64,000 nucleotides of DNA from a virus. The DNA is taken from IMG/VR virus record IMGVR_UViG_3300037502_002960, positions 19,360-83,359 of that record; one strand, written 5' to 3'. A program made the translations under genes and the position numbers. Position 1 is the first letter of the stretch, and each line of letters starts with the position of its first letter. The notes under the pieces were generated by a model. That model was given only the letters and a program-made list of their open reading frames with translations. It searched no databases and was not told where the DNA came from. Below are positions 3,066 through 30,060 of the stretch, one piece after another.

Positions 3066-4064
3066 TTAAGCACCAAATTTAACGAAACCGAATGCTTTAG
3101 AAGTTACAACGGCAATACCAAACTTGTTAGATACAAAGTATTCTTGCATCATGTCAGATGAAGTTCCACCTTGATTATCTTGGATAATTGCGTCACCTTC
3201 GTTAACAACTTTAACCATTTTGTCTGCATTTTGTGGTAATAATAATACAAAGTCATTACCAATTGAGAATTCGTCAGTACCATATTTATGGGTTTGAGCG
3301 ATTTCACGTAGTTCGATACTAGCAATTTTGCCATAGTATCCTAAGTCGTTCTTAGTATCAACCATAGCATCAGTTGTAGCGTCTGGAGCTAGCTTACGTA
3401 AAGCAAGTTTAGTACCGTGGATTGCCACTTTTTCACCAGTACGAGCCTCAATATGCATAGCCAATTCAATAATTTCTTCCTCTGTAGGAACAGTTGTTGC
3501 AGTAAAGTGATATGTACCATTGTACTCACCATATGATTGCATTACAGCAATAGCAATACGTTCGTTAAGGTCTTTCTTGAACGACTTTGCAATTCCTTCG
3601 ATGAAATCAGCCCAGTCAACACGACCTGCTAAGAAGCGGTGGAAATCTTCTCCAACTTTAATAGCATATGTATCAAGAGATACTGAGAACTCTTGTCCAT
3701 CACGTAAACGTTGTCTACGGATATTACTATTTCCATCAGAAACGAGAGCGACACGGAATAAGTTGTTTGCAGGAACTTTAAATAAGTTTTCATCGCCCCA
3801 TGCTAAGTTACGATATTCTGCGAAAGCCTCTAAATCGTTTGAAAGGTCTTCTTGAACAGTTTCGTTGATAATTTCTTCAAGAATTTCAAAGATTTCTACC
3901 TTATGTTTACGGAAAGTTTTACGGTCAATCTTACCGTTTCCTTCTAGTGAGAATTCCATTAATTCTGCGAAAGCCTTACGAAGTGCATCGTTAGCTTCAT
4001 TTGTTGAATAGTTTTGTACTCTGCCTTTTGCTAAATCGACAGCTAATTTAATCATTTCATTCAT
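3066..4064 (-). CDS. Major capsid protein (SPbeta YonB-like)
   Basis: 332 aa, GGAGG RBS, typical MCP size and C-terminus, order portal-protease-decoration-MCP. Confidence 0.8.
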   Translation of the reverse strand: MNEMIKLAVDLAKGRVQNYSTNEANDALRKAFAELMEFSLEGNGKIDRKTFRKHKVEIFEILEEIINETVQEDLSNDLEAFAEYRNLAWGDENLFKVPANNLFRVALVSDGNSNIRRQRLRDGQEFSVSLDTYAIKVGEDFHRFLAGRVDWADFIEGIAKSFKKDLNERIAIAVMQSYGEYNGTYHFTATTVPTEEEIIELAMHIEARTGEKVAIHGTKLALRKLAPDATTDAMVDTKNDLGYYGKIASIELREIAQTHKYGTDEFSIGNDFVLLLPQNADKMVKVVNEGDAIIQDNQGGTSSDMMQEYFVSNKFGIAVVTSKAFGFVKFGA

Positions 4065-4627: not shown

Positions 4628-6214
4628 TTATTTATTTCTATATTTTTCAACTAAACCACCATAAGGTGTTTCGTCTACTTTATCTTTGCTGAAACTTAAC
4701 TTAATAGTTTCTTTTTCTTTCTTTGTAAAATTCTTTTTGCTAGCAACTTTTTTACCTAAAATTGCATAACATTTTTCTTCAATTTCTTCTAAAGAAAATT
4801 CATGAACATTAATATCTTTTACATCTTCTTCGTTTAACTGGAATTTTTCAAAGATATCTTTCGAGTTAGATTCATGCTCATCTTTTAACTTATCAAGTTT
4901 AAACTCTTTTAACTCTTCATTTTCTTCTTTTAAAGATTCGTATGTAGAGCGCATTAAACTTAAAGCATCTTTTTCTTCTTTTGTTAAATACTCAGCGAAT
5001 ACCTCACCTAAGTTTTCTACAAGTTCTGCTTTTTCATTTACAATCTGATAAGCAATCTTATAATGCTTGTTTTCGCTATAGTTATAAGCAACAAAGGTTT
5101 TTTCAAACACTTCTGTTACATACATATCACCGTAGCCTAATTCTTCAATTAAACCATAAAGTGATGAACGAATATCTTCATGAGACATTTCAAAAAACAC
5201 TGTAAATACCTTGTCTTCTTTTTCTTCATCTTCTGTATTTTCGTCAATAACTTCTTCTAAAGTTTCTTCTGTTACTTCATCATGATTTTCTTCATCTTCG
5301 GTCTCAGTATCAACTTTATCTTCAGTTACGACTACAGTCTCTTCTTGAGATTCTTCTTGTTCAACTTGTTCAACTTTATCTTCTGCTAAAATTTCATCTT
5401 CTGAATCATCTTCAACATCGGTATCAAAAGCTTCTTTCACAGCAACTTCCAAATCTTCATCGTTTAATGATTCAAAGTCAATATTTTTTGCTGTTAAATC
5501 TTCTTTTGAAATAGAATATTTTTCTAACAATTCTTCAAGCAATTTACTATCCCCTTTCTCTTCTGATAAGGAAGTTTTTAACTCATAAATCATATGAGAA
5601 AACTCTTTCTTAAATTCATTTTTATTCAAAGAGTAACCAGTTATACTAGCATCTTCAAAGGCTGGCTCAACATTGTCGCCCAAAATACATAATGCTGAAA
5701 AATTGAAACCATCAATAATATAAGTGTCTTTTTCATCAGACCATTTTCCATCTGTGATTTCAATCTCCATTGACTGACCTTTGCCATTTTCAATAATGTC
5801 ATAAGCTTCTTCGTATCTACCAGTCCACAAGTAACACCCATGGATTGTCAAATACTCTCTTGTGACACCATCGTCACCTTTAACTTCTTCCCATTCATAT
5901 GTAGCTGATTCTGGAACAACACCGTATGGCTTTGTTGTATGAATATATTTGTATGTATCAATATCAATTTTGCCACCGTGACCTTTATAGTCTTCTGATT
6001 CAACAGAGTATTCTCCAACAATCGGAATATTTTTTAACGTGGGAAGAGCTTTTTCGACCGCATTTTTTGTAATGTAAGATGCGTTTCTATTCTGTCCAGT
6101 ATACATAACTCTTACTTTGCAGGTAGAGAAAAGTGGATTAATCGCTTTAACATCACTAATATTTGCTTTAAACTCTAAAATTTTATCCATTTTTACTTCT
6201 CCACCCCCTTTCAA
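4628..6214 (-). CDS. Prohead protease/scaffold (YonD-like)
   Basis: N-terminal protease-like domain (GQSMEI, FSALCILG..VEPAF) and acidic coiled-coil C-terminus; true start probably the second Met (~6190). Confidence 0.75.
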   Translation of the reverse strand: MKGGGEVKMDKILEFKANISDVKAINPLFSTCKVRVMYTGQNRNASYITKNAVEKALPTLKNIPIVGEYSVESEDYKGHGGKIDIDTYKYIHTTKPYGVVPESATYEWEEVKGDDGVTREYLTIHGCYLWTGRYEEAYDIIENGKGQSMEIEITDGKWSDEKDTYIIDGFNFSALCILGDNVEPAFEDASITGYSLNKNEFKKEFSHMIYELKTSLSEEKGDSKLLEELLEKYSISKEDLTAKNIDFESLNDEDLEVAVKEAFDTDVEDDSEDEILAEDKVEQVEQEESQEETVVVTEDKVDTETEDEENHDEVTEETLEEVIDENTEDEEKEDKVFTVFFEMSHEDIRSSLYGLIEELGYGDMYVTEVFEKTFVAYNYSENKHYKIAYQIVNEKAELVENLGEVFAEYLTKEEKDALSLMRSTYESLKEENEELKEFKLDKLKDEHESNSKDIFEKFQLNEEDVKDINVHEFSLEEIEEKCYAILGKKVASKKNFTKKEKETIKLSFSKDKVDETPYGGLVEKYRNK

Positions 6215-7735: not shown

Positions 7736-9761
7736 CTATTCGAAAGTTCTATATTTTGGTTTTTTAACTGCAACATAACCTGTTGCATTAAACTTAGGTC
7801 TATTTTTCTTGCGCTGATTTTTCTTTTCTTCAAGGTATATATAGTAGAGTCCGTATGAAACTGCAGAATATCTATCCTTTTCCATTTGGCTTGATACACG
7901 CTTGACTCTAGTTTTATTGCCCTGTGCTTCGAATGTCAAGTTCATAACTTCATCAACGAATAATGATGTTTCCACGTGTGGAATCAATTGTTGTGCAAGT
8001 TTTTCAGAATCTTTTTCTTTACTCTCTTCTTTTATGACATTTTCACTAACAAGTAATTTTAGGTCATGGTTTGAAATGGTAGCCATAAAGTGGTTATGTA
8101 TATCTGATGCACTTGTCTCTTTTGTGTTAGACATGACATTAAATATAAGTGGTAGTGAATTTGGTTGTTTATATTTATCATAACTGCTATCATTAACAAC
8201 AGAATATGAAGGAAATCTGTCTTCTTTTACAAGATAGTCTATCAAACCTCTACCTAAACCATTACCATCGACTACAACCATAGATGCATTATATTTGCTA
8301 ACAAGTTCTTTAACGTAAATTGATTGTTTTTCAAAGTGCATATTGCCTTTATATGTATGTATATTAACTAGGTGTTTAATATAAGTCCCATTACCTCTTG
8401 CTGTAAGTTTAAATACAGCAATTGCTGTTGTTGCTGTCTTTTTCTTTTCTGAACGTGCAACGTCAACAGACAATACGTATTTTACATCAGATTTAACTTT
8501 TAAAGCTTCTAACTCTGATTTCACCAATACTCTTGATTTTTCCAAGTCTTTTAGTTGAACCAAGCTGTTCTCGCTTGAACCAGTCCACACACTCATATAT
8601 TCTCTCAATTTGTTATCGTGAGGGCTTTTTATCTCTCACTTCTAGGAGTTTCCCCCATTATACCTTGTTAATTCAAGGCTAGTTCAGCATACATTTTCAC
8701 CTTCGTACGTTAGTATGTTAAGGTGTTGGACGCTCTTGGCAGAATTATATTCTAATTTAATAGTTTCATCTGCTATGCGTTACGATACTACATATTTTTT
8801 ATGATATATAGTTATCTCGGTATTACCATATCTAATTAATATTAAAGTTAGGTTTCACCGATATCGCCCAATAATAATTCTGAATATTTCTAATCAGAAC
8901 GCCAAAAAATTTAGCATATTGAAGTGGACTCATTGACGGGTCATTTTTTACCTCTTCTATGTAAGCTGGGTCTAGTTGCTCAAACATAACTGGTAAAGTC
9001 CAATCATTACCAATCACAAAAGCTGATTTGCCCATAGCCATTTCTGTCATAACGCTAAATAATTGTTCCCAAGCATACGACTGTTTTGAACTTGCCGTAG
9101 TAACGTAGCTCAATTGTTTATGGATATCATATTTTGAAACTTTACCATCTGCACCCTTACGGTTGTTTGCTAGTAATGGTAATAGTACCTCACCGATAAT
9201 TTCTCTGTGTTTTTCCATACTAACAATCTCTTCAAAACTAAGTCCGTGTCTTCTGAGACCACGTGAACCTTGACTCGCAACAACAATATCTAAGATACTG
9301 CCGTTCCAAAACGTAAGCCTTGTAAAGTCTTTTGCAAAAGTATGTTTTTTAACTTCGCCTTTTAACAAGGGAATAAAATTCCAAATAGCCTCTATATTAG
9401 CTTGACTGATTTGGGCGGCTTGGTCTTTTTGTGGCGCAACCAAAGATAATTTAATTCCTGGATAAAATATACATTTAAGATACATACTTAAAATATTTAG
9501 GAAAGATTTACTCGTTCCCCTAGTAGATGTGATGTACTAATAAACCTTCTTGTATCTCGCCATAATTCTTAAAAATAATCTCTGAAAAGGGTAAAGTTCA
9601 AAAGAACCGTCTTTAGGCTTTATATAGTCTATAAATAAATCTGGGTAGTATTGAAAAAACGCTAACATATTTGCAAATATTGGTAGCATATCTTCAACGT
9701 TTTTAACATTAGTTCCTTGAACATTCTCTAATTCAGACCATGGTTTCCACTTAGAAGTCAT
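7736..9761 (-). CDS. terL: Terminase large subunit; exons 9761-8913 and 8605-7736, with in-frame TAG at 9537-9539
   Basis: LYPFQ adenine-binding motif, Walker A TRGTSKS, RGLRR..FEE Walker B region, RNase H-like nuclease motifs (SVDVAR, DGNGLG, KDRYSA); spliced junction reads SPLQYA|REYMSVWTG. Confidence 0.88.
8606..8912 (-). mobile_element. Group I intron (307 nt, no ORF) in terL
   Basis: 5' exon ends in U, P1 GCU|AAA pairs with UUUGGC (U.G wobble), core motifs UAUCGGUGAAACC, AAUACCGAG, GUAACGCAUA/UAUGCUG, terminal G; removal restores the frame. Confidence 0.88.
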
Positions 9762-9799
9762 TGTGCATCACCTCCGTTTCAAGGAAAGCGGTTTTTGAA

Positions 9800-10792
9800 T
9801 TAATCATCTAAATCACCGTCTTCACCAGAATCGTTCAATCCAAGCTCATCTTCATAATCTTCATCAATTTCAACTGGTGTTAAATCTTCTTTATAAAACT
9901 CTTCCAACTCATCTTTCATCTCTTCTGGAATGTCTCTAAGAATCTCTTTACCAACCAATCTATGATAATAATTAGACAACGCAATCATCATGCCATCAAC
10001 AATATCTCTTTCAAACTCTACTGGCGGTGGTTGTCTCCAACCTCTTTTTTCAACTTCCTCCCATATCTGAGAAAAGCTTCTTATACCAGTAGCATCATCA
10101 ATGCCTTTTCTATCAACAGGTCTAAAGCCTGCTGACTTCATCATATCTTCATATGTTTTACTAATTTTACTATAGTCTGTCCACTCTTTACCTCTTCTTA
10201 GCCTGTCTCTATCGACAGACAGATAAGCTAACTGCATTAACATATCAATGTGTGTAGGTGTGTGTATTTCATGAGTAGACCTCATATCTTGATAGAATTT
10301 CTCTAATTGCAAGTATTCTTTTTGATTATAACCTGTACCCCATTTATCAACCATTTCATCTGAGTATTCTATAATCTTTCCTGTAGTAGTTTCTATTGTA
10401 TTCGGTGGATTTACCGACGATAAATCAACATTGCCACTATCTTGTATTCCATCGCTATTCATAAAAGTTTTACCTTTATATTGATGAAGTGAACCAACCA
10501 TACTAAGGTAACTACCAATAGGATTCCTTTTTTCCTTATTTTTCATTACTTTATCCCATTCTTCTTGATAGAATGGTTTATCTATTTGTCTTAAAAATCC
10601 GATTACCTCTTCCAAGTTTTCATAATCTATGCTCTCTCTGACGCAATCTCGACAAATATCAAGTCTACCGTCTGGGAATAGAGGGCTATCAACTTTATAA
10701 AAAGTGCTTTCTGGTTTTTCTTTGCCACACTTTCCTTTGCAAAGTTTTTTTGGAACAGGACTGGATTTCTTTTCTATCTTCCTAGGTTTCAA
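9800..10792 (-). CDS. Putative terminase small subunit with N-terminal Zn finger (YonG-like)
   Basis: 330 aa, CKGKC..CRDC, directly upstream of terL. Confidence 0.55.
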   Translation of the reverse strand: MKPRKIEKKSSPVPKKLCKGKCGKEKPESTFYKVDSPLFPDGRLDICRDCVRESIDYENLEEVIGFLRQIDKPFYQEEWDKVMKNKEKRNPIGSYLSMVGSLHQYKGKTFMNSDGIQDSGNVDLSSVNPPNTIETTTGKIIEYSDEMVDKWGTGYNQKEYLQLEKFYQDMRSTHEIHTPTHIDMLMQLAYLSVDRDRLRRGKEWTDYSKISKTYEDMMKSAGFRPVDRKGIDDATGIRSFSQIWEEVEKRGWRQPPPVEFERDIVDGMMIALSNYYHRLVGKEILRDIPEEMKDELEEFYKEDLTPVEIDEDYEDELGLNDSGEDGDLDD

Positions 10793-12218: not shown

Positions 12219-12440
12219 TTAATCTGAATCAGTTTCCAACTCTTCTTCTTCAACTTCTTTTTCAATCTCTTGAGTAATCTTAATATCTAATTTAATCTCT
12301 TTGTATTCAAATCTTTTAAGAAATTCAAGAATATCTACAGCTACAGTTTCTGCACTATCCTTATCAATCTTTTCATGAATGAGAAGTTGTTCAGCATCTA
12401 ATAATCCCTGTGTATTTAATGTGCTACTAATTTTAGCCAT
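12219..12440 (-). CDS. Small acidic protein (YonK-like)
   Basis: 73 aa, AAGGAG RBS, synteny. Confidence 0.5.
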   Translation of the reverse strand: MAKISSTLNTQGLLDAEQLLIHEKIDKDSAETVAVDILEFLKRFEYKEIKLDIKITQEIEKEVEEEELETDSD

Positions 12441-12461: not shown

Positions 12462-12974
12462 TTTTAACACCAAAAAGAATTTAGCGAGGGATTGCACCCT
12501 CGTTTTAAATTATAAACGCTTGTTTCGGTCACATTGGAATATAATATTCTTGGTAGGTAGCTATCCTATCCTCCATATCATACTTTTTGCCCAAAAGTAG
12601 GGGTTTCACCTACAACACTCACATGGTTGCTAGAATTAAAATATCAGCTCTCTACTGTATGTAATATAGTTAAAGCAGATTTATGCAAGTGTACTCAGTG
12701 CCGTCTTATAGTCTGTCACCAGACGTCAACTGCTTAAGTCTTTTAAGTTGTGGCGTGGAATTACTATTATTAACCACTCTTTGTCCTCCACTATCAACCC
12801 GACATCACTGATACCATAAGCTTACTTTATAATTTAAAAATATCTTATCTCATCGCTTTCTAGCTGTGACCATTGCTTAACCTTTTCAGATTTAATTTTT
12901 CAATGGTTGAGACAGATTACCTTATCGACTACCAATCGATTACTCAGTCAGCTAAATTCTTTTTAGTGTTAAAA
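12462..12974 (-). ncRNA. ROOL-like large structured RNA
   Basis: 513-nt ORF-free region closed by a ~24-bp terminal stem; contains AUUGGUAGU, GCAAUGGUCACAGCUA, CAGUGAUGUCGGGUUG, GACGUCUGGUGA, CAAUGUGACCGAAA, which I recall from ROOL RNAs; lies in a phage tRNA cluster. Confidence 0.8.
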
Positions 12975-12990
12975 ATAAAATTTAGGTAAT

Positions 12991-13033
12991 TTGTGCAGGG
13001 AGCTGGATTTGAACCAGACTTTATGTTCCCTGC
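12991..13033 (-). ncRNA. tRNA minihelix-like element (acceptor stem and T arm only)
   Basis: GCAGGGA-ACATAAAG-TCTGG TTCAAAT CCAGC-TCCCTGC-A-CAA. Confidence 0.6.
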
Positions 13034-13043
13034 ATAATACAAG

Positions 13044-13352
13044 CGCCCCATAGATGATTCGAACATCTGACCCACGCTTTAGCTTACCAACTACAGTTTT
13101 CACTGCCACGTAGTGTTTGTGGTCTGGACTATAACTTCATCATTTCAGATGCGACACGTTTAGTCTCTACGGAATCTCAACCAATAGTTTTACCTGCATA
13201 AGCCATTCAAACTATCTTGTTTCCTCGGTATTGCCATCAGCATTATCTGTTAAGGTTTCACCGATACGGTGTCGTGCATTTCATAAGTTATTTTTCCCTA
13301 TGAAAGCTCCTATAACTGAAGAGCGTTGCTCTATCCACTGAGCTAATGGGGC
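13044..13352 (-). tRNA. tRNA-Arg(UCU) interrupted by a group I intron
   Basis: GCCCCAT/ATGGGGC acceptor, GGATA D loop (A20), ACGCT/AGCGT anticodon stem, TTCGAAT T loop, G73; spliced loop CU-UCU-AA; CCA not encoded. Confidence 0.88.
13083..13318 (-). mobile_element. Group I intron (236 nt) at tRNA position 34/35
   Basis: CUU exon end pairs with GAG guide, P10 UAG/CUA, core UAUCGGUGAAACC, AAUACCGAG, GUAGAGACUA/UAGUCC (P7), terminal G. Confidence 0.88.
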
Positions 13353-13364
13353 TTGATAAATTAA

Positions 13365-13673
13365 TGCTATCTCGACTCAAAAAGCTACTTATGCCCCTTA
13401 TCAAAGTTAAGTCAAGTATAGCCCTCTGCCTACTTAACTAGTATTTCAGCAGAAGTTTTTTGTGGCATCTTGTTTTAGCGACGCATCGCTTGATAAACTT
13501 GTGGTCAACAGTTTTAATCTTTAAAAATTACCCTACAGAATAAACTGTAGTCCTAATCAGTAAAAACAAAACCTACACAAGAGCTTATGACCTATCTTGG
13601 TACGCTACTTATTGTAAGCGTGACAGGTACTATTTGAGCCAGACCTCTTATTAGTCGCATATCTGGTGGCGAC
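13365..13673 (-). ncRNA. Unassigned large structured RNA (possibly GOLLD-related)
   Basis: ORF-free; stems GUCGC/GCGAC, CAAGA/UCUUG, CUACAG/CUGUAG, GCGA/UCGC, CUGC/GCAG, GCUAU-CUUGAC/GUCGAG-AUAGC; possible pseudoknots CCAGAU/GUCUGG and AUGCC/GGCAU. Confidence 0.6.
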
Positions 13674-13894
13674 AAATATTTGATATATATATTAACATAA
13701 GTTAATTTATATAAAAAATCAAGATTCTTTTGGGTTTCTGTCTAAACTTAAAACCATATAGTTTGAATTCCAAAAATTATATCTTTTTGAATTTAAACTA
13801 TCTTCTTCTAGCCCTGTATCATAACTGTATGAACCTTTATAAGTTACACAGTCATTATAGAATGGTGTTTTTGCAGAGCCTTCTGTATCTTTTC

Positions 13895-14107
13895 TTAAAT
13901 TGATTCTTCATATTCACCCAAGGATTCATATTCAAAATTGTCTTCTCCATATTTTCTAATTGCGGAGTAAAGTGGTCGATTTTCACATCTCTTTTTTCTA
14001 CTGTCAATCAAATGTTGTTTAAATCTTTTTTCTACAGTTGAGAATGTTTTTCCTACATATTCTTTGCCATTAATCAAGTTTTTTATAACATAGATTGTTC
14101 CTTTCAA
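13895..14107 (-). pseudogene. Truncated free-standing GIY-YIG homing endonuclease
   Basis: TIY...YVGK...R...H motif, GGAGG RBS; stops after 70 aa, before the catalytic domain is complete. Confidence 0.7.
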
Positions 14108-14179
14108 AAAAATTCCTCCGTTTTTAATTATATATGGATGGTTTTGAATACCAGAATCTCACCTTTAGATGATACTTTA

Positions 14180-14254
14180 TGGTGGACTTGGAGAATCCCG
14201 ACATCTCAACCTTTCCCTTATGAGGGGAATGCTCTTCCTTTGAGCTACAAGTCC
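14180..14254 (-). tRNA. tRNA with CAU anticodon (Ile2 or elongator Met), atypical T loop
   Basis: GGACTTG/CAAGTCC acceptor, TTCCC-CT CAT AA-GGGAA, A73, encoded CCA. Confidence 0.8.
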
Positions 14255-14344
14255 AGAATAGCCATGAGCAACATGGCATAATCTAACCGATAAGTCGGTC
14301 GTTTACTTTATTATTCCTTGTAGAATAACACGATTAATCGTCTG

Positions 14345-14429
14345 AGTGTGGTGCAATGGGTCGAACATTGCAACTCAACATCTATAGGCTAGCCATAATG
14401 TTGCGCTTTTCCAATTAAGCTAACCACAC
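14345..14429 (-). tRNA. tRNA-like RNA with an 18-nt anticodon loop; identity undetermined
   Basis: Perfect GTGTGGT/ACCACAC acceptor, GCTT/AAGC D arm, GCAATG-TTCGACC-CATTGC T arm, CAACA/TGTTG stem enclosing TTATGGCTAGCCTATAGA. Confidence 0.65.
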
Positions 14430-14536
14430 ATAATTATGATGTCCGCCCACTTTAATCAACTTTTAAATAACAGAAAGTGGGGAGACACCAAGAAATAAGT
14501 TAACTCATTCAATAGTGATTTCTCACTATAAATAAC

Positions 14537-14565
14537 ATTATATCATAATATTTTATTTTTGTCAA
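14537..14565 (-). promoter_or_regulatory. Sigma-A promoter driving the RNA operon
   Basis: TTGACA-17-TATAAT with extended TG. Confidence 0.8.
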
Positions 14566-14584: not shown

Positions 14585-15793
14585 TTAAATATCCCCAAAA
14601 ATTCTACTTGCTTCACTTCTAACGTCAATATCCAGTACTACAATGCCAACATTCTTATTACCTTTAAGAGATTCTACGGCATGTTTTAATCCATTGTCTT
14701 TAGTGTACTTATACTCTGACTGATTAATATCACCACTAAAAGCAATAACAGAATTTTTTGCAATTCTTGTACCAACAAGTTTAATTTGTTTGATATCTAA
14801 ATCTTCTGCCTCATCAACAAACATAAATGTGTCTTCAAAGCTCATGCCTTTAATATAAAAAGGAATCTCTTTATCCAAAACACCTCTCTGTTCTAGGTAA
14901 AAAGCTTCTTGTTCACCGCCATCAAGGTGCTGAACAATTGGTTTAAAGAAACCGTTTGTTTTTTCTCCTTTATCACCAGATAAGAACCCAATTTCCTCTC
15001 CACTGCCAATAGGATTTCTGATTACCATAATTTTAGACTGTTCACCTTTATCTAAAACAGAATGTAGTGCAACTTTTGTTGTTAAGAATGTTTTACCACT
15101 TCCATATGTACCTAGAATAAATTTAATTGGAATATCTTTGTTATTTAATAAGTCTAATGCGCACTCCTGTAAATCATTCTCTGGATTGATATGTTTAGAT
15201 TTGTCATCCCATCTAGGTAATTTTAGTTTTACATGTTCTTCACCATTCCATCTGTACTTGTCAACAGTTTCTTTATTTAAATTCCTAACAATCAAATACT
15301 GATTTACTAGTAGTTCATATTTATTATGATTTAAGTTTGAATAAAATTCTGCCATTTCTTTGTCATCCATATCAACAAACTTGTAACCGCCATAAATATC
15401 ATATAAAGATTCGTTTTCAACAAAAGCCATTTCAACACCATATTGCTTACACTTTTGTCTCAACAGTCTATCATTTGTAATCATCCCATAGCCTTTTTCG
15501 ATTGCAATATTTAAAATAATATTATCAACATAATCTCCGTCAAGACCATCTTTTTCTTCAAACTTATAATCATTAATATCTTCAAACTCATACTCGTTTT
15601 CGTCTAATATACGTTTTAGATTTCTGATATTCCATTGTAGCGTACTATCAGATTTTCTTGTTCTCTCAAGATGTTCAATCTCTCTGTTAATATCAGATGG
15701 AATAACACAATCGTATTCTTTAATTACCTCTGGGTTTTTTAACAAAACATTAGTATCAATAATATATTTCATAAACAGTCTCCTATTCGTCAA
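14585..15793 (-). CDS. phoH: PIN-domain/PhoH ATPase fusion
   Basis: IIDTNVLL PIN motif, GTYGSGKT Walker A, VDEAED, GDINQ. Confidence 0.9.
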   Translation of the reverse strand: MTNRRLFMKYIIDTNVLLKNPEVIKEYDCVIPSDINREIEHLERTRKSDSTLQWNIRNLKRILDENEYEFEDINDYKFEEKDGLDGDYVDNIILNIAIEKGYGMITNDRLLRQKCKQYGVEMAFVENESLYDIYGGYKFVDMDDKEMAEFYSNLNHNKYELLVNQYLIVRNLNKETVDKYRWNGEEHVKLKLPRWDDKSKHINPENDLQECALDLLNNKDIPIKFILGTYGSGKTFLTTKVALHSVLDKGEQSKIMVIRNPIGSGEEIGFLSGDKGEKTNGFFKPIVQHLDGGEQEAFYLEQRGVLDKEIPFYIKGMSFEDTFMFVDEAEDLDIKQIKLVGTRIAKNSVIAFSGDINQSEYKYTKDNGLKHAVESLKGNKNVGIVVLDIDVRSEASRIFGDI

Positions 15794-24139: not shown

Positions 24140-24254
24140 AACATTATATAGAAGAATAGTGATATTTTTATCTAAATTCATTTAAGGCAGATTAGTTAAT
24201 TAATCTGTCTTTTTCTATTGACAAAAATAAAAAATAATGCTATAATATAAATAG

Positions 24255-28809: not shown

Positions 28810-30060
28810 TTAATATAGGTATGGTGGTTTGGGTAGTGATTTATTTGAAAAGTAAAAAATATACCCCCTCCCATGCGTGAATCTGGGTATATGTAAATTT
28901 TGTGGCACTATATGTAGATTGAGTATTTTTTAATGACCGTACATATTGAGGATATTTAGTAATTTTTGGGTGACATTATAGTGTTTAAAAGGGCTAGAAA
29001 CGTTGGTGTTAAAGGATTTTTGGTAGTTGGTGGTGGTGATATTATGGTCAAGTTATGGTTTGGGTGAAAATTTTCAATCGTATGGAAGAGATTTTAGGGG
29101 TGGGAAATTATATAATATGGAAGATTAGGTTGGGTTAAGGTTGGATTGGGGTGAGAGGTTGTGAAAGGCTGATGTAGATAGGGTTTGAGGGTGTTTTAGG
29201 TGTGGATAAACAGGTGGATTTAGGGTTTTTTTATGTAGATTTAGGGTGGATTTAAGGTTAATGTGGAGTGATTTTGAGGTTGTATTTTTGCGTGGACGAG
29301 GTTTGATTATGGGTGATTGGGTGTGTTATGGAGGTGATTTAGGGTGATGGATGTTGACAAGAGATTGAGATAATAGGGTTAATAGAGGGGATTTTAGACG
29401 ATGTTGAAAAAAGAGTGGGAAATGGGTTTTACGGATGGAAAAGGGTGTAAATGGGTGAGATTGGGGTGGGATATGGAGAAAATGGGATAGAGGTGAAAAT
29501 GAACACGGAGTGTGGGAGTTGGAGTGCTATACACATTTTGAGAACTGGATTGGAAGAAAATGGTAAAAAACTACCCCTATAAGGTACGTTATAGGGACTC
29601 CCACCTGGTAGAATATGGCAGGGATAAATGGAAAATTGTGGTAACCTTGATTGGAAGATTACGGTATTTTACTGTAAGATTATACCAAAGTTTATATCTG
29701 TAAAATATGGTAAACCTTCCCACAATCGCCACCTATTGTTAACACGGCTTGTTTGGTCTTAGACTTCCAACTACCCTTAGTAACCTCCCTTCCCTCTCTC
29801 ACTAAATAACTTATAGTAACCTACTTACTTTTTGTAACCAACCTGAACCAACCCCACAACCTCCAACCCTAAAAAAAGGACCAATTCACCACCTACCAAT
29901 TTTACCAAAAATTCCCAAACTAAAAAATCCTGATCCCCTGATCCCTACTCTCTCAGACCCTCACCAAGTGAAACGAACAATACAACTATACATCTTTTAA
30001 TGTTTCATTCTCTCTAATCGCCTTCTAGCAACATCACCAGGACAACCAACCAACCAGCCT
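28810..30060. other. Non-coding region with abrupt G/T to C/A strand-skew switch
   Basis: G+T-rich to about 29690, C+A-rich afterwards; no ORFs. Confidence 0.7.

What the first reader, a model, noticed from the sequence alone, without database searches (positions are those of the whole stretch)
12462..14565. A 2-kb phage RNA operon under one strong promoter
Seen, in transcription order: sigma-A promoter, stem 14441-14486, tRNA-like RNA with an enlarged anticodon arm, four hairpins, tRNA(CAU), dead GIY-YIG, ~310-nt structured RNA, intron-containing tRNA-Arg, minihelix, ROOL-like RNA. Large RNAs alternate with tRNA-shaped units. Inference: host RNase P/Z cut at the tRNA-like units to release two large RNAs (tRNA punctuation), giving an RNA-based module of unknown function such as decoys against anticodon nucleases or RNA scaffolds.
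Basis: partly seen in the sequence, partly recalled or inferred. Interest (0 to 1): 0.72.

Follow-up and report, generated by a model that had tools for sequence, protein, structure and literature searches.

The report
Phage tRNA island with large RNAs
This gene-free 2 kb of an uncultured Bacillus-type phage is its tRNA gene island, rebuilt so that a few tRNAs and tRNA look-alikes sit between two large folded RNAs, one a distant relative of the cage-forming ROOL RNA and one of no known family.

Summary
All eleven listed elements are present on the minus strand. The stretch lies where Tsamsa-like Bacillus phages carry a 19-tRNA array, between phoH and the phosphoesterase and packaging genes, so it is a remodelled phage tRNA island.

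It holds:
- a 12/12 sigma-A promoter;
- a tRNA look-alike with a 16-nt anticodon loop;
- a tRNA(CAU) with an odd T loop;
- a third tRNA destroyed by a now-truncated GIY-YIG nuclease gene;
- a ~320-nt conserved RNA (RNA1) with no Rfam match;
- a tRNA-Arg(UCU) split by a group I intron, well supported by covariation;
- a minihelix;
- a ~510-nt RNA closed by a 24-bp stem, whose core matches Rfam ROOL below threshold (40.9 bits, E 7e-7).

The block from RNA1 to tRNA-Arg is 95-97% identical in phages whose neighbouring proteins are 20-47% identical.

Co-transcription and cutting at tRNA borders fit the layout but are unproven: no RNA data exist, and a possible second promoter precedes RNA1. ROOL next to phage tRNA islands is already in print, and this scan has reported ROOL-bearing tRNA islands and intron-split phage tRNAs on other DNA. 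I class it as a new variant of a known kind. RNA1 is the newest part.

The parts
14537..14565 (-). Sigma-A-type promoter, TTGACA-17-TGnTATAAT
   Evidence: 12 of 12 with an extended -10. Similar promoter sequence sits between phoH and the first tRNA in Tsamsa (L007 1208-1243; first tRNA at 1319) and in other relatives.
14430..14536 (-). Leader with three hairpins, including stem-loop 14437-14490
   Evidence: MFE -33.2 kcal/mol, z -5.48, 0 of 200 shuffles. The stem arms are conserved in L010, but the loop there differs and holds a promoter-like -10.
14344..14429 (-). tRNA-shaped RNA with a 16-nt anticodon loop that can zip into a long arm; no CCA encoded
   Evidence: ARAGORN with introns allowed. 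RF00005 29.6 bits in a 291-nt scan. Cloverleaf MFE. 84 of 86 positions identical in L010.
14255..14343 (-). Four small hairpins
   Evidence: z -3.50, 1 of 200 shuffles. In L010 hairpins 2-4 keep their stems; changes fall in loops or give a wobble pair.
14180..14254 (-). tRNA(CAU) with encoded CCA and a non-canonical 9-nt T loop
   Evidence: RF00005 50.9 bits. ARAGORN misses it. The same odd T loop, with compensating stem changes, occurs in an unannotated copy in Bacillus phage Goe19.
14135..14178 (-). 5' two-thirds of a third tRNA gene, cut off by the nuclease-gene insertion (approximate borders)
   Evidence: It aligns with the 5' part of the intact 73-nt tRNA at L010 5010-5082. No fold of its own, z +0.41.
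13895..14107 (-). Truncated GIY-YIG homing-endonuclease ORF (70 aa); degenerate remainder down to about 13725
   Evidence: Pfam PF01541 E 3e-8. PHROG homing-endonuclease families match only its N-terminal ~66 residues. The whole insert is absent from L010 and from contigs of runs X2 and X4.
13694..13722 (-). Possible internal promoter, TTGATT-17-TATGTT (8 of 12)
   Evidence: Read. It falls below the scanner's threshold. It aligns with TTGAAA-17-TGnTATAAT in front of the same pseudoknot in L005.
13353..13680 (-). RNA1: conserved structured RNA with no family match, a 5' H-type pseudoknot, a multi-branch core with one variable hairpin (13513-13592) and two 3' hairpins; ends 13 nt before tRNA-Arg
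   Evidence: z -3.08. No Rfam hit. 95-97% identical in L010 and L098 outside the variable hairpin. Compensating changes.
13044..13352 (-). tRNA-Arg(UCU) gene: exon 1 13319-13352, group I intron 13083-13318 (236 nt), exon 2 13044-13082; no CCA encoded
   Evidence: ARAGORN, coordinates, covariation test. T-stem and P6 compensating changes in L098.
12991..13033 (-). Minihelix: 7-bp acceptor-like stem plus T arm with loop UUCAAAU; D and anticodon arms missing
   Evidence: MFE -15.9 kcal/mol, z -3.31, 3 of 200 shuffles. No homologue in L010 or L098.
12462..12974 (-). RNA2: ROOL-related large RNA closed by a 24-bp stem (12951-12974 with 12462-12485); ROOL-matching core at 12524-12814
   Evidence: z -4.68. 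Inverted repeat, 23 of 24 matching. RF03087 40.9 bits, E 7.2e-7, model positions 189-519 of 574. No ROOL hit for the 5' third. A ~97-98% identical copy lies in contigs of run X2 from another study.

Best explanation
This is the phage's tRNA island, the counterpart of the tRNA array that Tsamsa-like Bacillus phages carry between phoH and the phosphoesterase and packaging genes. It has been remodelled into a mixed RNA gene cluster.

**Likely mechanism (inferred)**
1. Host RNA polymerase starts at the consensus sigma-A promoter and reads through the cluster. A weak second promoter may add starts in front of RNA1.
2. Host RNase P cuts at the 5' side of the tRNA-shaped units.
3. RNase Z cuts after the CCA-less units: the tRNA look-alike, tRNA-Arg and the minihelix.
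4. The group I intron splices itself out to give tRNA-Arg(UCU), which reads AGA, the phage's main arginine codon.
5. These cuts free the RNAs in between. RNA1 is a new conserved structured RNA. RNA2 is a ROOL relative whose 24-bp closing stem may also be trimmed by a double-strand RNase.
6. A SegB-like GIY-YIG homing-endonuclease gene once landed in one tRNA gene and has since decayed. Such nucleases could explain why the RNA block moves between distant phages.

**Shown:** the elements, their folds, the synteny, the conservation pattern, the intron structure and the ROOL relatedness.
**Inferred:** the single transcript, the cleavage sites, and what RNA1 and RNA2 do. By homology RNA2 may self-assemble as ROOL does.
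For: **Synteny**
- Tsamsa has phoH, 19 annotated tRNAs and the exonuclease gene in the same order.
- 33 tRNA-array or phage relatives share the phosphoesterase gene at about 43% aa identity.

**Promoter and terminators**
- The promoter is 12/12, and similar sequence sits ahead of relatives' arrays.
- The scan finds one minus-strand terminator-like site inside the cluster, at 13550-13533 in the variable hairpin.
- L010 and L098 have strong terminators right after tRNA-Arg. In the window the minihelix and RNA2 follow instead.

**Intron**
- On 5 sequences, 96.9% of 353 cells pair, against 35-41% when partners are slid.
- 29 pairs change on both sides, against 0-4 when slid, and 0 of 500 shuffles reach this.
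- A U-G pair closes P1 in 5 of 5 sequences.

**tRNA-Arg use**
- AGA makes up 262 of 400 arginine codons in 33 ORFs.

**RNA1**
- z -3.08.
- 95-97% identical to L010, while the exonuclease is 46.7% aa and PhoH 19.7% aa identical.
- An internal hairpin has diverged (about 57% identical once its conserved anchors are removed, my arithmetic) yet keeps pairing through 2 double changes.
- Run X5 changes pair 13626/13592 from C-G to A-U.
- Pseudoknot stem 2 has 2 of 6 pairs changed on both sides in L005.

**RNA2**
- ROOL hit with E 7.2e-7 on the operon strand.
- The closing stem's single non-Watson-Crick position is G-U on this strand.

**Geometry**
- In L010, RNA1 lies between two tRNAs with gaps of 0-1 nt and 13 nt.

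**Literature**
- ROOL lies near tRNA islands, and co-transcription has been suggested (PMC5737381, passages).
- ROOL forms an octameric cage (PMC12286853, section read).
- T4 segB is a GIY-YIG gene between tRNA genes (PMC2988022, Table 1).
Against: - No RNA evidence at all: none of the 18 listed runs is on record as RNA.
- The promoter-like site at 13722-13694 could make RNA1 through RNA2 a separate unit.
- A hairpin followed by a U run at 13550-13533 could stop some transcripts.
- The cluster has no clear terminator at its end, so it may simply read into the packaging genes.
- In L010 the best promoter-like site lies inside the loop of the 'leader stem', so that stem may not be an RNA element there.
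- RNA2 reaches less than half of Rfam's ROOL gathering score. It was missed in the 64-kb and 2.8-kb scans and by the genome search. Its 5' third matches nothing.
- RNA1 is known from only about four lineages, so covariation is thin. One L098 change breaks a predicted pair.
- The high identity of the block could reflect recent transfer rather than constraint.
- The L010 copy of tRNA(CAU) has a 6-nt loop without CAU, so this unit may not decode everywhere.
- Three of the five sequences in the intron test are near-identical, and the structure was drawn on the window's sequence, which favours it over the slid controls.
Confidence: 0.7

Rival explanations
1. There are two or more independent transcription units. 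The strong promoter serves only the first tRNA-shaped units. RNA1, tRNA-Arg and RNA2 are made from the internal promoter brought in with the nuclease-gene insertion, or RNA2 is just the leader of the packaging operon.
For: - TTGATT-17-TATGTT at 13722-13694 aligns with a strong promoter before the same pseudoknot in L005.
- The ~450-bp nuclease insert separates the two halves.
- No terminator lies between RNA2 and the YonK-like ORF, which starts 22 nt downstream.
Against: - The internal site matches only 8 of 12 and fell below the scanner's threshold.
- L010 has no such site, and RNA1 there directly abuts a tRNA.
- There is no convincing terminator upstream of it.
- The two readings are not exclusive.
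Confidence: 0.3
2. It is a decaying tRNA island. The look-alikes, the minihelix and RNA1 are wreckage left by nuclease-driven rearrangements. Their conservation reflects recent horizontal transfer, not function.
For: - One tRNA is clearly destroyed and the nuclease gene is dead.
- The minihelix looks like a tRNA with its middle deleted.
- The L010 copy of tRNA(CAU) has lost its anticodon.
- The block's identity is far above that of the flanking genes, as recent transfer would give.
Against: - Within the same block one hairpin has diverged strongly while the rest stays at 95-98%.
- Compensating changes occur in RNA1, in the tRNA stems and in the intron.
- The tRNA look-alike keeps 84 of 86 positions, including its odd loop.
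- RNA2 matches ROOL.
Confidence: 0.1
3. RNA2 is a small mobile DNA element with 24-bp terminal inverted repeats that inserted after tRNA-Arg. It is not an RNA gene of the operon.
For: - The ends form 24-bp inverted repeats, 23 of 24 matching.
- It shows presence/absence: L010 and L098 carry a terminator at that place.
Against: - ROOL match on the operon strand.
- Strong fold, z -4.68.
- No second copy in the 83-kb contig.
- A 20-nt repeat pattern found only 4 single, unpaired matches in IMG/VR, with no other similarity.
- No clear target-site duplication, by reading.
Confidence: 0.08
4. One reading: the tRNA-shaped units and large RNAs act as decoys or scaffolds against host tRNA-cleaving defences.
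For: - Phage tRNA arrays are linked to escape from tRNA-cleaving defences, and SegB acts on such an array (PMC13096335, abstract and passages; PMC7824862, passage).
- The look-alike keeps a perfect tRNA body with a non-decoding anticodon arm.
Against: - Nothing in the sequence ties these units to any nuclease.
- No defence or anti-defence gene was identified in the locus.
- A 16-nt loop or long stem is unlike the anticodon loop that such nucleases recognise (inference).
Confidence: 0.12

Closest known systems
ROOL RNA (Rfam RF03087) in phage and prophage tRNA islands (Weinberg 2017, PMC5737381; Kretsch 2025, PMC12286853)
   Same: - A large structured non-coding RNA of a phage, next to tRNA genes.
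- The core aligns to ROOL model positions 189-519 and includes several of its conserved motifs.
- The ends are closed by a long helix.
   Different: - It scores 40.9 bits against a gathering score of 99.1.
- The 5' third and the last ~55 model positions do not align.
- It is about 510 nt, against an average of 581 nt.
- Whether it forms a cage is unknown.
tRNA array of Tsamsa-like Bacillus phages (NC_023007)
   Same: Same genomic slot, strand and gene order, with a similar promoter in front.
   Different: Tsamsa has 19 annotated ordinary tRNAs (21 by ARAGORN). This phage has two plausible decoders plus look-alikes and two large RNAs.
Phage T4/T6 tRNA gene cluster with the free-standing GIY-YIG gene segB (PMC2988022; PMC13096335). 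T4's stable 'species 1 and 2' RNAs in that cluster are recalled from memory, not checked.
   Same: - A GIY-YIG homing-endonuclease gene sits among phage tRNA genes.
- Non-tRNA stable RNAs are encoded within a tRNA transcription unit.
- The tRNA region behaves as a preferentially inherited block.
   Different: - Here the nuclease gene is truncated and sits inside a tRNA gene.
- The extra RNAs are far larger.
- The host is a Gram-positive bacterium.
[quoted passage not shown]
   Same: - Insertion after U34, as in the classical tRNA-Leu(UAA) intron.
- A U-G pair in a short P1, a terminal G, and a P3-P8 core with the P3/P7 pseudoknot.
- About 70% identical copies sit in chromosomal tRNA-Arg(UCU) genes of 19 of 104 Bacillaceae genomes.
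   Different: - It is carried by a phage. A 2014 review states that all phage introns then known were in protein-coding genes (PMC3984707, section 11).
- Rfam's RF00028 does not detect it.
tRNA punctuation of mitochondrial transcripts and tRNA spacers plus RNase III stalks of bacterial rRNA operons (recalled, not checked here)
   Same: Large RNAs are flanked by tRNA-shaped units and by a long end-to-end helix, so host tRNA and double-strand RNases could set their ends.
   Different: No processing data exist here, and the large RNAs are not ribosomal.

Membership tests
ROOL RNA (RF03087) | Covariance-model score at or above Rfam's gathering score (99.1 bits) | tested here: not met
   40.9 bits, E 7.2e-7, seen only when 606 nt were scanned. 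No hit in the 64-kb, 2.8-kb or genome-search scans. In one search the controls did not ring either.
ROOL RNA (RF03087) | Conserved core helices and motifs of the central and 3' domains | tested here: met
   The alignment to model positions 189-519 keeps the long-range 12-bp helix (10 of 11 pairs by my reading) and several upper-case consensus motifs.
ROOL RNA (RF03087) | Full architecture (P1-P19, six multistem junctions, three pseudoknots), including the 5' domain | tested here: not met
   Model positions 1-188 and 520-574 are not aligned. A separate scan of 12790-12995 gave no ROOL hit. A long closing helix is present.
ROOL RNA (RF03087) | Location in a phage or prophage near a tRNA island | tested here: met
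   passages of PMC5737381 and PMC12286853.
ROOL RNA (RF03087) | Assembly into an RNA-only octameric cage | not testable with these tools
   Needs native gels or cryo-EM.
Group I intron (tRNA anticodon-loop type) | P1 with a U-G pair at the 5' splice site and a G as the last intron base | tested here: met
   The U-G pair is present in 5 of 5 aligned introns. The intron ends in G before the 3' exon in all five.
Group I intron (tRNA anticodon-loop type) | Core of P3-P8 with the P3/P7 pseudoknot and the P4-P6 domain, kept by covariation | tested here: met
   Pairs changed on both sides: P2 5 of 7, P3 5 of 6, P4 2 of 6, P7 2 of 5, P8 2 of 4. These helices pair in 97-100% of cells. P9 is weaker, at 70-84%.
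Group I intron (tRNA anticodon-loop type) | Match to Rfam Intron_gpI (RF00028) | tested here: not met
   No hit on the tRNA-Arg intron at E up to 10. Williams 2020 notes that the Rfam seed holds no bacterial introns.
Group I intron (tRNA anticodon-loop type) | Self-splicing with guanosine | not testable with these tools
   Needs an in vitro splicing assay.
tRNA (RF00005): unit 14183-14254 | Cloverleaf, 7-nt anticodon loop, canonical 7-nt T loop | tested here: inconclusive
   50.9 bits with a 7-nt loop carrying CAU, but a 4-bp T stem and a 9-nt T loop. ARAGORN misses it.
tRNA (RF00005): unit 14344-14429 | 7-nt anticodon loop able to decode | tested here: not met
   The loop has 16 nt, or zips into a long arm. 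The body alone reaches 29.6 bits.
GIY-YIG homing endonuclease | Complete catalytic domain plus a DNA-binding domain | tested here: not met
   70 aa. It matches profile positions 1-43 of 78 in Pfam and only the first ~66 positions of 235-284-position PHROG profiles.
tRNA-punctuated polycistronic RNA | One primary transcript whose mature ends lie at the tRNA borders | not testable with these tools
   No RNA run was listed. Only the layout fits: RNA1 lies 0-1 nt after and 13 nt before tRNAs in L010.

The most novel reading that the evidence does not exclude
Most tRNA-shaped units here are no longer decoders. They are kept as cutting handles, which makes this a true tRNA-punctuated non-coding RNA operon. 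Its real products would be two large RNAs. RNA1 would be a new class of structured phage RNA that travels as one cassette with the intron-bearing tRNA-Arg. RNA2 would be a 'half-ROOL' chimera, with a ROOL core and an unrelated 5' domain, that assembles into a shell of different geometry.
Probability: 0.22. Interest if true: 0.75.

Novelty: new variant of a known kind. Interest (0 to 1): 0.55.

Why it matters
ROOL and GOLLD form large RNA-only cages, but their function and the way they are cut out of their transcripts are unknown. This locus is small enough to clone. In one place it offers:
- a divergent ROOL core with a different 5' domain;
- tRNA-shaped units and a 24-bp stalk that predict exact processing sites;
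- a second conserved large RNA of no known family.

Its promoter is of the ordinary host type, so expressing it in Bacillus subtilis could test directly how such RNAs are released and whether a reduced ROOL still assembles.

It also adds phage examples of self-splicing tRNA introns, which standard tRNA finders miss, and another case of a SegB-like nuclease gene landing in a tRNA gene.

Tried and rejected
**Relatives through PhoH.** Searches gave only two distant loci with no similar RNA region.

**RNA1 homologues.**
- The only match in 50,697 phage records was a 32-nt one at E 0.3, taken as chance.
- Two IMG/VR pattern scans returned only the known contigs of L010 and L005.
- There was no match to the RNA1 part in 104 scored Bacillaceae genomes, apart from one 38-nt hit at E 8e-4.
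- Rfam gave nothing.
- The pseudoknot pattern occurs once in the window and, among 198 loci, only in the window's own loci, L010/L096 and L005/L097.

**RNA2 as a mobile element.** Rejected.

**ROOL through the genome search.**
- The window's own record and four related records gave 0 matches.
- The control genomes did not ring, so this says little.

**Closest protein relative, L008.** Two ORF-poor gaps of 567 and 604 nt between its tRNAs fold only weakly better than shuffles: z -1.03 (16 of 100) and z -1.96 (0 of 20). I do not claim large RNAs there.

**Sequencing runs.**
- No RNA holder was listed.
- All four laid runs are contigs, so they show neither ends nor expression.
- 91 differences and 60 pieces were not shown, so I could not examine variation in RNA2.

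**Tsamsa gp247.** The 'RNA-binding protein' is DUF2828 + DUF7788 + a weak VWA match. A Ro60-like reading is only my recollection.

**Papers.**
- My searches found no paper on a group I intron in a phage tRNA-Arg, or in Bacillus tRNA-Arg(UCU).
- Table 1 of Williams 2020 is an image and supplements are closed, so I could not see whether this type is among its 21.
- The ROOL alignments in the supplements of PMC5737381 were also out of reach.


Full report
**Where the window lies.** The window is part of an 83,359-bp IMG/VR virus contig that CheckV rates about 51% complete. G+C is about 30%. The finding lies on the minus strand between a PIN-PhoH gene (14585-15793) and a YonK-like 73-aa ORF (12219-12440). 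A metallophosphatase ('exonuclease') gene and the packaging and portal genes follow. The phosphoesterase is about 43% identical to that of Tsamsa-like Bacillus siphoviruses of 160-170 kb. In Tsamsa (NC_023007) the same slot, phoH to exonuclease, holds 19 annotated tRNA genes followed by three ORFs. ARAGORN tRNAs there. The 2-kb stretch is therefore this phage's tRNA island.

**The elements.**
- Promoter: the scan gives one perfect site, TTGACA-17-TATAAT with TG, at 14565-14537. Similar sequence precedes the tRNA arrays of Tsamsa and other relatives.
- Leader: it folds into three hairpins, z -5.48.
- tRNA genes: ARAGORN in default mode finds none in the whole window. With introns allowed it finds two: a tRNA-like unit at 14344-14429 with an 11-nt 'insert', and tRNA-Arg(UCU) at 13043-13352 with a 236-nt intron.
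- tRNA(CAU): Rfam finds it at 14183-14254, 50.9 bits. It encodes CCA and has a 4-bp T stem with a 9-nt T loop.
- tRNA look-alike: it reaches Rfam's tRNA threshold only in a short scan (29.6 against 29 bits). Its anticodon loop has 16 nt and can zip into a long arm.
- Goe19: an unannotated copy of the odd tRNA(CAU), with the same T loop and compensating stem changes, lies in Bacillus phage Goe19.

**Relatives of the cluster.** Searching with the phosphoesterase gave three useful loci.
- L010 is a complete 116.8-kb IMG/VR phage.
- L098 is a 14.7-kb metagenome contig that begins inside RNA1.
- L008 is the closest phage by protein, at 63% identity.

L010 carries the look-alike, the hairpins, the tRNA(CAU) homologue, an intact third tRNA, RNA1 and the intron-bearing tRNA-Arg, followed by a terminator. 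L098 carries RNA1 (partial) and tRNA-Arg, then a terminator 157 nt later.

| Segment, window vs L010 | Identity |
|---|---|
| tRNA look-alike | 97.7% |
| RNA1 outside its variable hairpin | 95-97% |
| tRNA-Arg with intron | 96.1% |
| Exonuclease | 46.7% aa, 60.9% nt |
| PhoH | 19.7% aa |

Logan contigs from four runs of four studies also hold the RNA1-to-tRNA-Arg block. Run X2 additionally holds 12583-12990 of RNA2 at about 97-98% identity. None of these runs is on record as RNA.

**The nuclease gene sits in a tRNA gene.** The ~450-bp segment with the 70-aa GIY-YIG ORF is absent from L010 and from the X2 and X4 contigs. In its place L010 has a complete 73-nt tRNA (5010-5082). The window keeps only the 5' two-thirds of that tRNA, up to the junction of the variable loop and T arm. 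The ORF matches only the N-terminal part of homing-endonuclease profiles and ends at an in-frame stop, so it is a remnant. T4 segB is a free-standing GIY-YIG gene between tRNA genes (PMC2988022, Table 1), and SegB cuts inside tRNA genes (PMC13096335, passage).

**The intron.** Rfam's RF00028 does not hit it. I drew P1-P9 on the window's sequence. I then tested the drawing on an alignment of five tRNA introns: the window, L010, L098, and the tRNA-Lys(UUU) and tRNA-Arg(UCU) introns of the 484-kb uncultured phage LR756508.
- 96.9% of 353 cells pair, against 35-41% with slid partners.
- 29 of 76 pairs change on both sides, against 0-4 with slid partners.
- 0 of 500 shuffles reach this.
- P3 has 5 of 6 pairs changed on both sides and P7 has 2 of 5, which supports the pseudoknot.
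- The U-G pair at the splice site is invariant.

Two caveats apply. Three of the five rows are near-identical, and the structure came from one of them.

The LR756508 tRNA-Arg intron is inserted at the same site. A 236-kb phage (L072) has a related intron with an HNH-type ORF in a tRNA(CAU) gene. In bacteria, 19 of 104 scored Bacillaceae genomes carry a ~360-bp match at about 70% identity. In 4 of 4 loci examined this is a chromosomal tRNA-Gly(UCC)/tRNA-Arg(UCU) pair with a 284-287-nt intron at the same site.

A 2014 review says that all phage introns then known were in protein-coding genes (PMC3984707, section 11). Williams 2020 raised the number of bacterial tRNA intron types to 21, but I could not read its table. 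Earlier reports of this scan describe intron-split tRNAs in other phages. AGA is 65.5% of arginine codons here, so the spliced tRNA would be useful.

**RNA1.** It folds better than all 100 shuffles and matches no Rfam family, even in a 381-nt scan. It has these parts:
- a 5' H-type pseudoknot;
- a multi-branch core;
- one hairpin that differs strongly between the window and L010/L098;
- two 3' hairpins;
- a 13-nt tail before tRNA-Arg.

Support for pairing:
- two double changes in the variable hairpin;
- a C-G to A-U change at 13626/13592 in run X5;
- several changes to or from wobble pairs;
- two of six pairs of pseudoknot stem 2 changed on both sides in L005, where the pseudoknot alone follows a strong promoter.

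One L098 change breaks a pair. The family is small, at about four lineages, and all members are uncultured.

**RNA2.** It is closed by a 24-bp stem with 23 Watson-Crick pairs and one G-U on this strand, and z is -4.68. Rfam's ROOL model hits 12524-12814 at 40.9 bits, E 7.2e-7, model positions 189-519 of 574, but only when 606 nt are scanned. Larger scans filtered the hit out. The 5' 175 nt match nothing. I read it as a remote ROOL relative, not a certified member. L010 and L098 lack the minihelix and RNA2 and have a terminator instead, so this pair of elements was gained or lost as a unit.

**How it likely works.** The layout fits host processing.
- The three CCA-less tRNA-shaped units would be cut by RNase Z just after the discriminator base, and all four units by RNase P at the 5' side. 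This rests on established knowledge of Bacillus tRNA maturation, which I recall and did not test.
- In L010 that would release RNA1 exactly.
- In the window the upstream tRNA is broken, and a weak promoter-like site stands in front of RNA1.
- The minihelix lies 16 nt before the closing stem of RNA2.
- The stem itself is a plausible target for a double-strand RNase.

None of this is shown by data.

**Comparison and verdict.** ROOL next to tRNA islands and possible co-transcription are in print (PMC5737381; PMC12286853). This scan has already reported ROOL-bearing phage tRNA islands and intron-split phage tRNAs on other DNA. New here:
- the particular combination of elements;
- a reduced ROOL variant;
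- RNA1 as a candidate new RNA class;
- the conserved non-decoding tRNA look-alike;
- a phage copy of the Bacillus tRNA-Arg(UCU) intron.

I rate it a new variant of a known kind, with interest 0.55.

Noticed in passing
window 8608-8832 and 9485-9800: The packaging gene region is broken into ORFs with ORF-free gaps. RF00028 gives only weak hits at 9665-9779 (10.2 bits) and 9826-9979 (5.8 bits). The close relative L008 has a clear group I intron (78.9 bits) in its terminase region, but that intron is not at the matching site here. The 224-nt gap at 8608-8832 looks structured by eye.
   Followed up: partly
L199 (Bacillus phage vB_BsuM-Goe19, OM728299, record about 29700-29775): An unannotated tRNA(CAU)-like gene with the same unusual 9-nt T loop as the window's tRNA(CAU), followed by a terminator. 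ARAGORN does not call it. A similar match lies in Exiguobacterium phage vB_EalM-132.
   Followed up: partly
L186 (LR756508, 484-kb uncultured phage) 463-1113; L072 8400-9500: Further phage tRNA genes split by group I introns: tRNA-Lys(UUU) and tRNA-Arg(UCU) in LR756508, and a tRNA(CAU) with an intron that carries an HNH-type ORF in a 236-kb phage.
   Followed up: partly
L187-L198 (unnamed Bacillaceae genomes): A chromosomal tRNA-Gly(UCC)/tRNA-Arg(UCU) pair whose tRNA-Arg carries a 284-287-nt group I intron after U34. A match is present in 19 of 104 scored genomes.
   Followed up: partly
L005 5678-5800: The 5' pseudoknot of RNA1 occurs on its own, directly after a strong promoter and before a terminator-like hairpin and a small ORF upstream of phoH. 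This resembles a leader or switch module.
   Followed up: no
L007 (Tsamsa) 3355-3968: About 600 nt of non-coding DNA with its own consensus promoter lies after the last tRNA and before gp247 (DUF2828/DUF7788). A hairpin motif recurs after each promoter of the island.
   Followed up: no
window 24218-24246 (+): A second copy of the island's promoter sequence, 90% identical over 29 nt, lies elsewhere in the contig.
   Followed up: no
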